Source of the DNA: an archaeon
GTDB taxonomy: Archaea; Iainarchaeota; Iainarchaeia; Iainarchaeales; 1-14-0-10-31-34
Length of the DNA: 33,525 nt
Assembly: GCA_043815885.1 (NCBI GenBank)
Contig: JBDRIL010000036.1
Location: 1-33,525, forward strand
Direction: 5' to 3'
Below, piece by piece: positions 25,339 through 31,300 of this stretch; the stretch's first letter is position 1, and every line of letters begins with the position of its first letter. Made by a program: the position numbers.

Positions 25339-28300
25339 CTACTGCCCCCTGTATTGAAAATTAAATATTAAAAATTTTTAAAGCGAGCCCGCTGGGGGTC
25401 GAACCCAGGACCCTTGGCTTAAAAGGCCAATGCTCTACCGACTGAGCTACGGGCCCACTTATTGGTGCTAATAAATTGGGTCAATACCCCTTTTTTAAAT
25501 TTTCCTTTATTTGCTCTTCTTTATTTCCTTCAATCCATTCATGTATTTCTGCAGGACTTTTGGGACTTTGATTGTACCTTTCTTTGTTTGGTGGTTTTCG
25601 ATTATCGCGCGAAGCATTCTGGAAGTAGCGATTGCAGTCGAATTAAGTGTGTGAACAAATTCTTTTTCAATTGAATTCTTTTTCCTGTACTTTATATTCA
25701 GTCTTCGTGCTTGGAAGGAAGTGCAGTTAGAACAGGAATGAATTTCAAAGTATTTTTTTTCTCTTGGAGACCATGCTTCAATGTCTGCTTTCCTTGAAGC
25801 AACGATTCCAATATCTCCAGTACACACTTCTACAACCCTATAGGGGATCATTAATTTTTTTGTGAGGGTTTCTGCATTCCTCAGTAATTCTTCAAAATGC
25901 TTCTGGCTTTCTTCTGGATTGCAAATAATTACTTGTTCTACTTTATTGAATTGATGCACCCTGAAAAAACCTCTCTCCTCTAAACCGTGCTTTCCTATCT
26001 CTCTCCTGAAACAAGGAGAAACCCCGACGTATTTTATTGGGAGTTCTTTTTCGGTTAAAATTTCATCCATGTGCATTGAAGCAAGAGGATGTTCAGAAGT
26101 AGCAATCAGGTAAAGTTCCTCTCCATCAATCTTATACATTACCTTCTCAAAATCCTCTAAATCAGTTACCCCCTCATAGGGCTTTCTCTTAATCATTAAA
26201 GGGGGCTCAATTAAAGTAAAATTCTTCTTTATTAATTCATCTACTGCAAATTTCTGTAAAGCTAAATCCATTAAAGCGAGTTCATTCTTTAATGCAAAGA
26301 AACCGCTTCCAGAAACCTTTACTGCTCTCTGGAAGTCTGCCTGATTTAACCCGACAGACAGTTCTCCGTGGTGCTTTAAGGAAAATTTTGGTTTAACTGC
26401 TTTCCCCCACCTTCTTACTTCCTTGTTTTTTGTTTCATCCCCCCCAAAAGGAACTGACTCATCCAATAAGTTTGGGAGTTTAAGCAATAAGGATAAAGAA
26501 TTTTTTTTAATGGTTTCTGCTTTTGCTTCAATCTCTTTTATTTCTTTTGGAAGAAACCTGGCTTTCTCAATTAATGACGCAGCCTCTTCTTTTTGTTTCA
26601 TTGCCTCATTAACTTCTTTTGAAACAAGGTTTCTCTTGTGCCTCAATTCGTCTAACTGCAGGAGAAGCGCTCTCCATTCCTTGTCAGAAGCAATGAATTC
26701 TTCAAGCATCTTTAAGTATTTGGGAGCCTTTCTTTTAGCCAAGTTATTTCTTACGAGTTCCGGGTTTTCTCTGATGAGCTTTATGTCAAGCATTGATTTT
26801 TCACTTATAATAAGAGAGAAAGCAAACAATAAAATAATATGGTTAAAGAATTTAAATTGAATGAAACAAAATTAAAAAAACAACAAAAAATTCATTAAAA
26901 CAGTAAAAGCAAACTTTAAATTACTATTTAAGCAAAGAAATATTTATGAAAGCAAACAAATTGCTTGACTTCAATGAAACAAAAGAATTTATTGAAACTG
27001 TTGGAGGAAAAGAAGCAGTGAGGTTAGTGAAGATATGCAGTAAGAAAAAGCGCGGAGTGAGTGATGAAGAAATCGCGGGAGATATAAAACTGAAGATAAC
27101 TGAAGTCAGAGCAATACTGAATAGACTTCATTACAGAGGGATTGCATGCTACCAGAAAACAAAGAACAACACGACAGGCTGGTTTTCATACACCTGGGAA
27201 ATAAAATTAAAACGAGTAGCTGAATTGCTTTTAGAACGACAGGCAGAAGAGATAACCAGGCTTGAGCAGAAACTAGACTTTGAAAAAAACTATGAGTTCT
27301 TTGCATGCAAGGAATCTTGTGAAATGGTTCCATTTGAGGTCGCAGCAGAATACCAATTCAAGTGCCCAAAGTGCGGCAGTGTGATGGAAAACACAGATAA
27401 CAAAGGAAGAATGAGGGGGATAAGGAAAAATATAAAATTATTGAATTTAGGAGTGAAGGAGATAAACAAATACACTTAAAAAAACACAAATTTTAGGACA
27501 AAACAATAAGTTTGGGTTTGGGAAGGAAAAGGGATAAAAAAAGGTTATTTTGCATTTAAAAAAATTAAAATGAATTAAATTAAGAAAGGGGCTTAAATTA
27601 TGTTCTAAGCCCAAAATAAAGACGAAAATCTGCTTTATTCAGCGGGGTAGGGCAGCCAGGAGTGCCCGTCGGGCTCATAACCCGAAGGTCGGAGGTTCAA
27701 ATCCTCCCCCCGCTACTTTTTCTTCACTCACTTTTTACCCTTAACGCCCAAAACACAGTTGTATTCAATGAAACGCCAGTTTTCTTTTCTCTTTTTTTCT
27801 TTTAAACAAAAAAATGTTTTTTGCGCTGTAATTTTGCTGTTTTTGAACGCTTGTTTTGGCACTCACTTTTTGTTGTAAACGCTTCTTCTCAGACCCGAAA
27901 CTGCTTATCGCATCACTCTGTTTTTGTGTAGATTGGCTTATATTGGTCTGAGACTGCTTTTTTTAATGGCATTTACTTGGTAATTACGGTAGGTATTTAA
28001 CATTACAATAAGCTTTAAAAGTCTTTACCATCATAACAGTAGTGATTAATATGTTTGGATGGTTAAATAAGCTGTTTGGAAGCTTTAGAAAAGAGATAAA
28101 AGCAACTGAAATTTCCGCCAGGCCAGGAGAGAGAGATAAAATCTATGAGTCAAAAGAAGAAGAGGTGGAAATCCACTCTTTATGGGATTTCCTAAAAACT
28201 ATTGAAAACACTCAGGCCCACCACATACTTTCAATCCTTGGGTTTAGCGAATGGATTACAATGGAAGAGATAAAGAGGCGGGTGAAAGAAATATTTGGAA

Positions 28301-31300
28301 TAGAATATACAAATGATAGAAGTCTTTACCCTTACATCAAAACCTTAGTGGATATTGGCTTGCTCGAGTCAATTAACGTTGGCGGGAAACGAAAGTGGAG
28401 GAAGAAGGACCTTATAATTAAACTAAAGAAAAAGAAGGAAGAAAAGAAAGAGGTAGTCGTTTCAGCCCTTCAAAAAGGAGTAAATTGAATTGAATTGTTT
28501 AAGCTTTGGGGACTTAGAGTAAGCACTCTTAAACCAAACAGAACCAGTTATTTTTTGGGCTTCGCCCAGAACTGCTTTGTGGTGCGCTGAATCAATCTTT
28601 TTCCCAGAGGATACTTCTTCCTTTAATTTTTCCATTTCCTCTAAAAGAAGCATGGGTTCTTTTGAAGAGGAAGTGAGCTGGGTTCTGTCAATCCATTTTT
28701 CCAGGGCAGACACAACGTTTGATTCTTCCAGGTCTTTTTCATTCAAATAATAAACTGCTTTCCAGTCGCCCTTGGTTGTCCAGTTGTGTGCCGGGTTTTT
28801 TCCTGTCTTAAAAAAACTAATGAGTTCTTTAAACGCATCTGGTTGAATAACCACACAATTTTTTCCTTGTTTAATAAAAGGGGTTTTAGAAAGCACTCCC
28901 GGACGGCGGTAGTTATAGGTTTTGCCACTTGATTTAGAAACCGATTGGGAATAACCATACAACGCCCTGAAAAGTTTTTGATAAGTATAAGAAGAATGCT
29001 TTATCTCATTAGGGAGAATGAACTTATATTGTATAAAAAATCCTTTCAGCCCCACACTCCACACTTCCACTAATATAATGTAATAATAGCTTATGTATAG
29101 GAAACATATATATTTTTAATAGAAGAAAATAAAAAGGTTGGTATAACTTTGGGGGAAACTGTGATTTTTTATCTTCTGGGCCTTATGTAGCGGCTTCTGG
29201 CGGGAGGGGTTTCTTCTTCCTCATCAGCTACTCTGGTTGAGGAAACCACTAAAATGTCCTTGGCTGCCTTAACGCTCTTGTATGGAAGGCTTTTTTCGCT
29301 GATTATTTTCTTTGCTTCCTGTTTTGATTTTACCTTTAGTGGCGCGGTTGTAACTGTTTCAATCCGGCCTTTTTCCAGGTTGATGACCAAATCAAATACC
29401 TTTCCTTTGTATTCGGCGTTATCAGTATATATGTCCATCCCAAAAAGTTTTGATAACCTTATAGTCATTATTCCACCTCTAAAATAAAAATTTTTTATAT
29501 TATTGGTTCTCTCTAATAATAACTCAACGAAGATATATAAATGTTTTGTCGGATTTAGGGCGGACTACATAACTAAAAGGTAATTTACTTATGGAAATAT
29601 GAACATTAGTAAATTATACATAACTAAGGATAATATATATAATTATTTATTATCGGAAGTATAGGGCCTCTCCCTAGAGGTTATCAAAAGGGCTCCTAAC
29701 CTTCTTAAGTTCCTCTGTAGAAACTGAAGTATAAATCTGGGTTGTAGAGAGATTGGTATGGCCCAGCAATTCCTGGATCTTCCTGATGTTTTCTCCTCCT
29801 TCAAGGAGGTGAGTGGCGAAGCTGTGTCTTAAACTATGGGGGCTTACCTTCTTCTCAATTCCCGCCTTTATAGCGGCACTTTTAACTATCCTCTGAACAG
29901 CATTAGTGGAAATAGGTTTGCCGTTTTTCTTGCAGAAAACAAAATCACTCGGGATTTTTCGTCTTTTTAAGTATTTTTTGAGTTCCTTAATCCAGTTAGT
30001 TGAGAGAATAATAACCCTGTCCTTGTTTCCTTTTCCCCCCTTCACTCTGGCGATTTTTTCATCTAAATTCATATCCATTAATTTTATATTCACTGCCTCG
30101 CTCACCCTCACCCCACTCGAGTAAAGGAACCCCACTATCAGCCGGTTCCTCCCGGCTTTTGTTGATTTAATTAATTCCTTTACTTCTTTTATAGTGAGGA
30201 CTGTGGGAAGTTTTTTTGCTTTTTTTGGGGTTCTAATGTCATCAATTATCTTATTTTTCAGGATATTGTGAAACAGGAATTTTAGTGCTGAATGAACCAG
30301 TGAGAGTGATGCATTTGAAAGATTTGAACCCTCTTTTTTTGAAGCAAGATACCCAACCAAGTCATCTCGGGTTACTTCATCTAATGGCTTTTTCAGGCGG
30401 TTAAGAAAGTCCTTTAAGTAACACAGGTACATGATTCTGGTTCTTTTAGAGTAACCGGAAATTATCAATTCTTGCCTTACTTTATCCAATACCCGTTCTT
30501 TTTCTTCCACGTAAAGAAAGAAGTTGTTTCTATTTAAATAAGTTCTATTTTTAGAGGGTTTACCATTAAATATTTATTCTGTTCTCTTGAATTAATGTTA
30601 TTGGTGGAAGAAAAATGTCGATAGAAAAAGTAAAGGTATTGAGTGTTACATTTGAAGACGGGGAAGAAATTCTGTCTAATTTAAAGAAGGCATTGGCTGA
30701 GAGTTCGGTTGAGAAATGCAGGATTACCACAGTCGAAGGCAAAATAAGCGACTTCGACATAAACGTCTTTGTTGCGGGCGAATTCAATGAAAGGCACGTG
30801 GGAGAGGAGTACAGACTTGCCTCAGTCCACGGAGTGTTTGAAGAGAAGGGAAATTTAGGTTATAATGGGAGTTTGACTGTTTCGCTTGCAGGGGAAGGCC
30901 ACAAGGTTGTTGGCGGAGACTTATTGAAAGGAAAAGCGGCAGGCGAAGTAACAATCAAGGCAGAAGTAATTAAATTCAAGTAATCAATGCCTTATTTCTT
31001 TTTTCTTTTTATCCTTCTTTGGTTTTGGGAGTTTTTTTGCTTCTTCCTGCTTTTTTTTCATAAATTTTAAAATAGCGCTCCCTCTAAACACGCCAACAAG
31101 ATAGCCTATACCAATCCCCAAAGCCAATCCAAGAAAGAACGGATCAATCATCCAATAAAAGTATTATAGTCAACTTAATTAATGTTTTTGCTTTTTAGTA
31201 ATACCAAGGCGGTTTAAATTGAGATACTCTTATTCTTCTTTCTGGACTGAAAAAGCAAGAGAGCTGGCAGAAAAAGCGGGCATGAAGCACATTAATCCAG

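What a model noticed while it worked through the whole genome (the two positions that open the first line are those of the whole stretch)
28051..30510. The terminus-polar motif doubles as a promoter element of ftsZ2, PRC-barrel and xerA-operon genes, with three conserved [...]
The motif that converges on dif also sits in the promoters of the second ftsZ type, both PRC-barrel genes and, as a palindrome, before g00823 in the conserved block xerA-PRC-g00823-g00822. g00823, g00822 and the winged-helix g01248 (next to dif) are single-copy order signature proteins without a family and are the candidates that link terminus and division.
Evidence so far: Relaxed motif within 330 nt upstream: 11 of 15 ftsZ2-type genes, 2 of 15 ftsZ1, 0 of 29 radA, 31 of 567 own promoters (138; own sites 136). 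Palindrome between PRC and g00823 in 7 of 30 fetched loci (35). g00823 in 55 of 55 good genomes (48), g00822 in 35 of 35 (141), g01248 in 31 of 35, within ~15 kb of dif in about 10 and missing in the family poorest in palindromes (142). Models pLDDT 91 and 93: ferredoxin-like plus helices (59, 71), winged helix (152, 157).
(Added by a program. Inside this text positions count along the whole contig: contig position 1 is position 1 of the stretch shown here. "Call 12" and the like, gene names such as g00115 and contig names such as C1 are that model's own, and its searches are not shown. The text may have been shortened before it was handed on; [...] marks where a part breaks off. The agent that wrote the report below was given it as the finding of a first reader that could run no searches.)

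Follow-up and report, generated by a model that had tools for sequence, protein, structure and literature searches.

The report
Terminus-pointing motif controls archaeal division genes
In a group of small uncultured archaea, one short DNA word points along both chromosome arms to the place where copying ends and also sits in the on-off switches of cell-division genes; a neighbouring protein of no known family is its most likely reader, which would tie the end of DNA copying to division.

Summary
Confirmed and sharpened. In Iainarchaeota the word [CA]TACATAA points towards dif (100 of 118 sites within 250 kb, 8 genomes) and brackets dif on both sides (12 of 14). It also occupies gene-fixed promoter positions: ftsZ2 25/30, PRC2 27/30, PRC1 46/56, g00823 48/58, against ftsZ1 4/30, xerA 2/48, g00822 2/56 and about 8% genome-wide. 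So it is not an xerA-operon element, and g00822 is convergent, not co-transcribed. The three orphans are not equal candidates. g00822 and g01248 each have a private promoter palindrome (55/56; 18/30), and genomes where g00822, g01248 or any tyrosine recombinase was not found keep the polar motif. g00823 is the only candidate found in all of them. It has a 9-bp-spaced palindrome of the motif just behind its own TATA box, a conserved basic ferredoxin-like domain, and distant homologues (next to cdc48) with their own related palindrome. Best reading: g00823 is an autoregulated sequence-specific DNA-binding protein that marks replichore polarity and controls ftsZ2/PRC transcription, in a lineage reported to lack CdrS. 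Binding is inferred, not shown. What the polar sites do (fork trap or translocase/SMC guide) is open.

The parts
29674..30510 (-). xerA, archaeal tyrosine recombinase; points away from dif in most relatives; its own promoter lacks the motif
   Evidence: NF040815 264 bits, cut-off 220; promoter 2/48; positions
29648..29668 (+). Motif B (TA[GC]TGGAA-N4-GGGG), copy at the xerA 3' end; a second, rare conserved element, partly ORB-like
   Evidence: PWM score 22.5; conserved in relatives
29617..29623 (+). TACATAA half-site, antisense to PRC1, distal site of the PRC1 promoter
   Evidence: PRC1 promoters 46/56, 44 antisense
29566..29572 (+). TACATAA half-site 51 bp (five helical turns) from the distal one, upstream of the PRC1 TATA box
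   Evidence: spacings in PRC1 promoters cluster at 51-53 and 61-63 bp
29169..29468 (-). PRC-barrel protein 1 (CdpB-like division protein)
   Evidence: PF05239 above cut-off; beside g00823 in 62 of 64 loci
29091..29113 (.). g00823 operator: TTATGTA-N9-TACATAA palindrome just 3' of the TATA box; in this genome the right half is perfect and the left half matches 5 of 7
   Evidence: 39/58 relaxed; 19/58 strict; strict palindrome in 58 of 101 genomes vs control in 4
29055..29075 (-). Motif B copy overlapping the ribosome-binding site and likely start (GTG 29055) of g00823, inverted to the copy at 29648
   Evidence: PWM score 25.8; 40/58 g00823 upstream regions; the Atlas record starts at residue 6
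28462..29070 (-). g00823: basic ferredoxin-like domain with an inserted beta-hairpin plus a C-terminal helical domain; proposed autoregulated binder of the motif
   Evidence: N-domain mean net charge +11.5, conservation 0.78; 111 of 121 genomes; homologues with their own palindrome
28051..28488 (+). g00822: winged-helix protein (PadR/Fur-like fold), convergent with g00823; probably a separate autoregulated regulator
   Evidence: weak PadR in 40 of 57 members; Z 9.4 to Fur, rmsd 2.6, 77 aligned; not found in 4 of 4 genomes of other orders
27980..27987 (.). GTAATTAC, private operator of g00822 (1-5 copies per promoter in relatives)
   Evidence: 55/56 g00822 promoters, 0-3 in nine other gene sets
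31579..31588 (+). Polar copy TATACATAAC outside the block, same orientation as the spacer copies (towards the right contig end, where dif is inferred to lie)

Best explanation
g00823 encodes a sequence-specific DNA-binding protein that reads the half-site [CA]TACATAA. (1) Shown in sequence: single half-sites lie along both chromosome arms pointing to the terminus, are about six times denser within 20 kb of dif, and bracket dif face to face. (2) Shown: the same half-site, often in pairs 5-6 helical turns apart, sits at gene-fixed positions upstream of the BRE/TATA of ftsZ2 and both PRC (CdpB-like) genes, the usual place of an activator. (3) Shown: a 9-bp-spaced palindrome of it occurs 1-3 times per genome, mainly right behind g00823's TATA box (a repressor position) and about 500-600 bp from dif. 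(4) Inferred: g00823 binds these sites, represses itself, activates ftsZ2 and the PRC genes (the job CdrS does elsewhere), and on the polar sites forms an oriented protein-DNA mark that fixes where the chromosome cycle ends. The most likely use of that mark is a Tus/RTP-like polar fork barrier; a guide for a translocase or SMC is about as likely. Sharing one protein would couple arrival of forks at the terminus to division-gene expression.
For: Polarity 100/118; same-composition 8-mers show a leading-strand share of 0.50 in G023, while CTACATAA (33:6) ranks first and TACATAAC (21:6) among the top four of 358; 10 vs 1.8 expected within 20 kb of dif; 12/14 dif sites bracketed; third-position GC skew flips at dif and is strongest next to it. 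Promoter counts and controls; the PRC2 site is antisense whichever way the gene faces dif. Phasing: mean cosine 0.66 at 10.35 bp, p 0.0003, 13 spacings. Binder by elimination: g00822 and g01248 have private operators; polarity persists where g01248 was not found (G009, G040) and where neither g00822 nor any PF00589 protein was found (G079, G092: 32 vs 3 and 38 vs 3 control, converging at or near PRC-g00823). In G009 and G040 the motif is lost before ftsZ2 and both PRC genes but kept before g00823. Distant homologues carry TTAG-N12-CTAA between TATA and start in 28/77 vs 0/159 other genes, half-site ACACTAA in 47/77. Tus and RTP are autoregulated by a ter site in their promoters (PMC10331603, passage).
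Against: No binding data. The fold match is generic (best Z 6.7, rmsd 2.4, 74 aligned) and names no DNA-binding family. Absences come from incomplete metagenome-assembled genomes (87-94%). An undetected protein that co-occurs with g00823, or the PRC protein itself, is not excluded. In G023 coding sites in genes facing away from dif are not polar (7/14), so part of the genome-wide polarity follows gene sense. G043 is weakly polar (13/19). Promoter use is not universal: absent in G009 and G040, sepF only 8/29, cdc48 0 of 2 genomes. Sites reach far up the arms and number 8-63 per genome, unlike the few long ter sites of bacteria. Related genomes are not independent; the helical period was chosen after seeing the data.
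Confidence: 0.62

Rival explanations
1. KOPS-like: the word is read directly by a DNA translocase (a HerA/FtsK-like ATPase) or by SMC, and the promoter copies are read by a separate regulator or by that motor's adaptor.
For: Short word on both arms, inverting exactly at dif and denser there, as described for KOPS (PMC2958812, passages). PF01935 ATPases in 5 of 5 genomes.
Against: Does not explain the palindrome behind g00823's TATA box, nor the related palindrome of its distant homologues. Convergence persists where no tyrosine recombinase was found.
Confidence: 0.14
2. One of the winged-helix orphans (g00822 or g01248) is the binder and g00823 is merely a repressed target.
For: Both have a recognised DNA-binding fold, lie near dif, and are single-copy; the word occurs in 7/30 g01248 upstream regions.
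Against: Each has a different private operator (55/56, 18/30). g00822 not found in 4 of 4 genomes of other orders, of which the three searched for the motif keep it; g01248 not found in G009, G040, G029, which keep it.
Confidence: 0.09
3. The word is a XerA half-site: XerA binds single arms along the chromosome (as an SMC unloader) and at promoters.
For: It shares CATAA with the dif arms and has the orientation of a left arm on the left replichore; xerA is next to PRC1.
Against: dif arms are C[AGC]G[CT]ATAA, never TACATAA; no face-to-face pair with a 6-bp gap among 693 sites; motif strong in G079 and G092 where no PF00589 protein was found.
Confidence: 0.05
4. g00823 is an ordinary transcription factor or nucleoid protein; the polarity is a by-product of genes facing the terminus and has no function of its own.
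For: In G023, sites in genes facing away from dif are not polar (7/14) while those in genes facing it are (24/29). Homologues elsewhere look like plain autoregulated factors upstream of cdc48.
Against: Intergenic sites are polar (38/52); promoter sites are sense for ftsZ2 but antisense for both PRC genes, so there is no single gene-relative orientation; 12/14 dif sites are bracketed at 23-229 bp in non-coding DNA.
Confidence: 0.1

Closest known systems
Tus-ter (E. coli) and RTP-Ter (B. subtilis) fork traps
   Same: Oriented sites facing the terminus; binder gene near the terminus with a site in its own promoter (PMC10331603, passage).
   Different: Here the site is an 8-mer spread far up both arms, it is also in promoters of division genes, and the candidate's structure search listed neither protein. 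Fork arrest untested.
KOPS-FtsK; ASPS 4-mers of Thermococcales
   Same: Short words skewed on both arms that invert at dif (PMC2958812, passages), with flanking inverted elements beside archaeal dif proposed as partner sites.
   Different: ASPS are 4-mers with no known reader; the word here is C-rich on the G-rich strand, forms phased pairs and palindromes, and is a promoter element.
CdrS regulon of haloarchaea
   Same: A small DNA-binding protein controlling ftsZ and a PRC-barrel gene; CdrS binds upstream of ftsZ1, HVO_1691 (PRC) and cdc48d (PMC8406309, passages).
   Different: CdrS is ribbon-helix-helix, encoded before ftsZ2, and reported absent from DPANN (PMC7439475, passages). Here ftsZ2, not ftsZ1, carries the box, and the box is terminus-polar.
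CdpB PRC-barrel division proteins
   Same: Two small PRC-barrel genes per genome, as in 10.1101/2023.03.28.534520 and .534543 (passages).
   Different: The passages read do not mention xerA or Iainarchaeota; function here is inferred from the family.
dif-associated SMC boundary (TrmBL2) in Thermococcus; MatP-matS
   Same: A DNA-binding protein acting on sequence around dif independently of XerA (PMC11840125, passages).
   Different: Those sites are not described as polar words along the arms; SMC involvement was not tested here.

Membership tests
Tus/RTP fork trap | Sites oriented towards the terminus on both arms | tested here: met
   100/118; 12/14 dif bracketed
Tus/RTP fork trap | Binder gene autoregulated by a site in its promoter | tested here: inconclusive
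   Site present behind g00823's TATA; that g00823 is the binder is inferred
Tus/RTP fork trap | Homology to Tus or RTP | tested here: inconclusive
   No Pfam/NCBIfam family; neither listed in fold searches
Tus/RTP fork trap | Polar arrest of forks | not testable with these tools
   Needs biochemistry or replication profiles
KOPS-FtsK | Short polar word inverting at dif | tested here: met
KOPS-FtsK | An FtsK translocase that reads it | not tested
   Only PF01935 (HerA-like) was searched, found in 5 of 5; PMC2958812 states archaea lack FtsK
CdrS regulon | RHH gene directly upstream of ftsZ2 | tested here: not met
   PF01402 hits in 5 of 5 genomes searched; in G000, G023, G009 and G022 none lies near ftsZ2
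CdrS regulon | Shared box upstream of ftsZ and PRC genes | tested here: met
CdrS regulon | Box sequence equals the CdrS box | not testable with these tools
   The CdrS motif is given only as a figure in PMC8406309
Xer/dif site (for the motif) | Two arms facing across a 6-bp spacer | tested here: not met
   No such pair among 693 sites; true dif has other arms
XerA (29674-30510) | NF040815 above cut-off | tested here: met
ORB / mini-ORB (for motif B) | TTCC...GAA dyad plus G-string | tested here: inconclusive
   Shares TTCCAC and a G-string with Pyrococcus ORBs (PMC1904270, passages) but lacks the dyad; a GGAA-N9-10-TTCC form lies upstream of sepF in 8 of 30 loci
Cas2/VapD/PaaX-like fold (for g00823, recalled resemblance) | Profile or structure match to a member | tested here: inconclusive
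   Ferredoxin-like topology only; no such family

The most novel reading that the evidence does not exclude
g00823 is the founding member of an archaeal class of polar terminus proteins: bound to oriented half-sites it confines fork fusion (or directs a motor) to a fixed point, and the same protein switches on ftsZ2 and the CdpB-like genes, so completion of replication is wired to division by one DNA word. In G078 and G092 the convergence point is the PRC-g00823 promoter itself, and in G092 no Xer recombinase was found, so the system may define the terminus without dif.
Probability: 0.35. Interest if true: 0.93.

Novelty: categorically new. Interest (0 to 1): 0.82.

Why it matters
How archaea end replication, orient the chromosome for dimer resolution without FtsK, and time division is largely open, and the known division regulator CdrS is reported absent from DPANN. 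This gives a named protein, an exact site, a predicted operator and controls (two sister orphans with their own predicted operators), so the questions can be tested with purified proteins and short DNAs although the organisms are uncultured. If the polar sites prove to be a fork trap, that part is an independent invention of a known kind; a terminus-polar word doubling as a division-gene promoter box is something I did not find in my searches.

Tried and rejected
Homodimer prediction for g00823: no answer; not used either way. RNA runs: none was listed. Foldseek against PDB and viral models: nothing at E<=0.001; PDB sequence search with the distant-homologue alignment: best E 0.069; Pfam on 43 distant homologues: nothing above cut-off; no names among cluster members except 'hypothetical'. 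Idea that the spacer sites only reflect terminus density: rejected, neighbouring promoters are at background. Idea that the dif region is really the origin: rejected for G023 on skew direction and mainly + genes at 640-840 kb; no origin was located. Idea that the motif is a Xer arm: rejected. cdc48 as a target in Iainarchaeales: 0 of 2 genomes. A test for a shifted half-site in two genomes with CAACATAA operators was inconclusive. Polarity of the distant homologues' half-site could not be tested because whole genomes for those loci were not available. Literature searches listed no paper on this motif or protein; subscription journals are mostly outside the library, and no supplements were read.
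Full report
Setting. The window is contig C36 of a 1.16-Mb, 62-contig archaeal genome. Record titles of loci carrying g00823 relatives mostly name Iainarchaeum/Diapherotrites or 'archaeon', so I call the group Iainarchaeota. The stated interval holds xerA (NF040815 above cut-off), a PRC-barrel gene, g00823 and, on the other strand and overlapping its end, g00822. Among 64 loci (two weak bacterial hits left out) PRC was found in 62, g00822 in 62 and xerA in 56, in the same order.

The motif. The finding does not spell it. TATACATAAC is among the most over-represented 10-mers of the genome, 25 against 1.1 expected; the more over-represented words belong to a repeat family I did not follow. 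In G023 the polar core is [CA]TACATAA: with the origin placed opposite dif, CTACATAA is 33:6 and TATACATAA 24:5 towards dif, while the 358 common 8-mers with the composition of TACATAAC sum to 0.50. The word is C-rich on the G-rich strand, so mutational skew does not make it.

dif and polarity. A 6-bp-spaced palindrome C[AGC]G[CT]ATAA-N6-TTAT[AG]C[CT]G recurs about once per genome (that pattern matched in 38 of 71 genomes, some hits being chance). In G023 third-position GC skew flips from + to - at 960-1000 kb, where dif lies, is strongest beside it and fades with distance. Counting TACATAAC within 250 kb of dif on the same contig in 8 genomes chosen for a long contig with a located dif (one located by eye), 100 of 118 sites point to dif; G043 is weakest at 13/19. 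Of 14 dif sites found in 33 stretches, 12 have a correctly oriented site on both sides, the nearest at 23-229 bp. Ten of 55 G023 sites lie within 20 kb of dif, 1.8 expected. Against: sites inside genes that face away from dif are not polar (7/14), whereas intergenic sites (38/52) and sites in genes facing dif (24/29) are. The window's four + sites point to the right contig end; that dif (on C60) lies beyond it is inferred from synteny.

Promoters. ftsZ1 was typed by its secE-spt5-rpl11 neighbours (the rule is recalled), the other type as ftsZ2. For ftsZ2, ftsZ1, PRC2 and g01248 I used the 30 best loci of 41 genomes; for the block genes, loci minus four near-duplicates and those with under 330 nt upstream. 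TACATAA within 330 nt: ftsZ2 25/30 (all sense), PRC2 27/30 (25 antisense), PRC1 46/56 (44 antisense), g00823 48/58, ftsZ1 4/30, xerA 2/48, g00822 2/56, TFE 4/53, serS 7/33, g01248 7/30; genome-wide 49/586 and 37/474. Many ftsZ1 starts were set too far downstream, so those windows hold less true upstream DNA. sepF has 8/29. Because xerA, g00822 and TFE share the terminus region and stay at background, terminus density does not explain PRC1 and g00823; ftsZ2 of G023 is 564 kb from dif. ftsZ2 sites sit about 16 and 78 nt before the TATA box, PRC2 sites often 20-46 nt before it. Same-strand pairs cluster at 51-53 and 61-63 bp (many are homologous places); in the two whole genomes 13 adjacent spacings give mean cosine 0.66 at 10.35 bp, p 0.0003, period chosen after inspection. 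In G009 and G040 the word is absent before ftsZ2, PRC1 and PRC2 but kept before g00823, and polarity remains.

The palindrome. Back-to-back pairs have one preferred gap, 9 bp (33 cases). The strict form occurs in 58 of 101 genomes, 1-3 times, the control pattern in 4. In G023 it occurs twice: before g00823 and 570 bp from dif; the own genome has the dif-side copy. Before g00823 it starts 7-15 nt after a TATA-like box in 23 of 39 cases, a repressor position by established archaeal promoter logic (PMC8406309, passage).

Which protein. Each orphan has a private promoter word: g00822 GTAATTAC 55/56, g01248 GGAAA-N6-8-TTT[CT]C 18/30, g00823 the palindrome 39/58, each at 0-3 in the nine other sets. 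g01248 was not found by profile in G009, G040, G029, which keep the motif. g00822 was not found in G078, G079, G092, G099, and no PF00589 protein in G079, G092, G099, G102; yet G079 and G092 have 32 and 38 TACATAAC against 3 and 3 control, converging at a face-to-face pair at or 1.4 kb from the PRC-g00823 promoter, and all four fetched loci of these other orders keep the word before PRC or g00823. These genomes are 87-94% complete, so absence is not proven. g00823 was found in 111 of 121 genomes, 54 of 55 good ones.

The protein. The model (pLDDT 89.8) has a ferredoxin-like domain with an inserted hairpin and a helical tail; best structural match Z 6.7, generic. The N-domain is conserved (0.78 vs 0.45) and basic (mean +11.5), with invariant Tyr, Lys and Arg. 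A profile search gave 86 representatives, including 100-125-residue proteins with the N-domain only; profile-profile probability 98.9. The Atlas places structural neighbours in Aenigmatarchaeota and, more weakly, in nucleotidyltransferase fusions. In 80 metagenome loci of ten such homologues' alignment, 77 had enough upstream DNA: 28 carry TTAG-N12-CTAA against 0 of 159 other genes, 47 carry ACACTAA, between TATA and start; a few carry TACATAA there. 43 loci have cdc48 adjacent; MinD and SepF occur in 4 and 3. The family thus looks like autoregulated DNA binders with related half-sites.

Mechanism. Shown: polarity, bracketing of dif, gene-fixed promoter positions, phasing, the palindrome, distributions. 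Inferred: binding by g00823 (about 0.7), self-repression and activation of ftsZ2/PRC, and a function of the polar sites. Autoregulation through the polar site is the design of Tus and RTP (PMC10331603, passage), and a skew that peaks at dif fits a fixed end point; but short sites far up the arms fit a KOPS-like guide as well.

Comparison. It works like Tus/RTP or KOPS in layout and like CdrS in its targets; it is not a member of the CdrS or Xer-site families by the features tested, and membership of the others is open. Papers: passages only of PMC2958812, PMC8406309, PMC7439475, PMC11840125, PMC10331603, PMC4999828, PMC4640148, PMC1904270, PMC9258230, PMC7617429, 10.1101/2023.03.28.534520 and 10.1101/2023.03.28.534543; others only as search listings; no supplements were read, and gene-neighbourhood tables in the PRC papers' supplements could list this block. 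Nine searches listed no description of this motif or protein.

Verdict. Interest 0.82.

Noticed in passing
window 29648-29668 (+) and 29055-29075 (-); G000 C60:49630-49650: Motif B, TA[GC]TGGAA-N4-GGGG: two or three strong copies per genome, flanking PRC1 in inverted orientation and often within 100 bp of dif; a palindromic GGAA-N9-10-TTCC form lies upstream of sepF, in G023 between sepF and the divergent cdc6-1 (8 of 30 loci). Partly ORB-like; Cdc6/Orc1 is a candidate binder.
   Followed up: partly
window 27960-28050: g00822 promoter carries 1-5 copies of GTAATTAC in 55 of 56 relatives: a predicted operator for this winged-helix protein; its other targets are unknown.
   Followed up: partly
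L097:6245-6760 (G000 C60:46244-46750): g01248 promoter has a conserved GGAAA-N7-TTTCC palindrome after the TATA box; several more copies in the own genome were not examined.
   Followed up: partly
L453, L455, L456 (G078, G092, G079): In another order of the class the polar sites converge on a face-to-face pair 22-24 bp apart at or near the PRC-g00823 promoter; xerA is replaced there by a divergent helix-turn-helix-like gene and no dif was found in the stretches.
   Followed up: partly
G009 C1:769 kb, G040 C1:465 kb, G037 C1:166 kb: In these genomes the xerA-PRC-g00823 block lies far from dif, near where the motif's polarity diverges, instead of 1-30 kb from dif.
   Followed up: no
G023 whole chromosome; G036 C9: GC3 skew is strongest beside dif and fades towards the opposite side; both cdc6 genes lie 75-165 kb from dif; arms judged by motif polarity look unequal. 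No origin was located.
   Followed up: partly
L159, L160, L164 and other ftsZ2 loci: ftsZ2 promoters share a further element, GTGTTA, 6-8 nt before the TATA-proximal site, kept even where TACATAA is lost.
   Followed up: no
G023 C1:852493-852616; G000 C34:6272: Four phased copies (spacings 42, 20, 61 bp) lie between a beta-CASP-like gene and a kinase-like gene in G023, with copies at the same locus in the own genome (gene names from the sequences, recalled): a possible further target.
   Followed up: no
L373-L452: Short g00823 homologues sit directly upstream of cdc48 in 43 loci, often with topoisomerase I or a divergent minD nearby; cdc48d is a CdrS target in Haloferax.
   Followed up: partly
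G000 genome-wide: A repeat family with TTTGATAGCTATCAAAAGACATTA-like words (36-48 copies) is the most over-represented sequence in the genome.
   Followed up: no
G000 C26:2682 and C26:35375: The own family carries two ftsZ2-type paralogues besides ftsZ1.
   Followed up: no
window 11006-12883 and 19572-21105: A RelA/SpoT-type gene is in two frames (HD part; synthetase-TGS-ACT part) and GMP synthase is split inside its glutaminase domain; real split or assembly error not checked.
   Followed up: no
G000 C60:49843-50469: A LAGLIDADG-like open frame (recognised by eye) lies 125 bp from dif and contains the first right-hand polar site.
   Followed up: no
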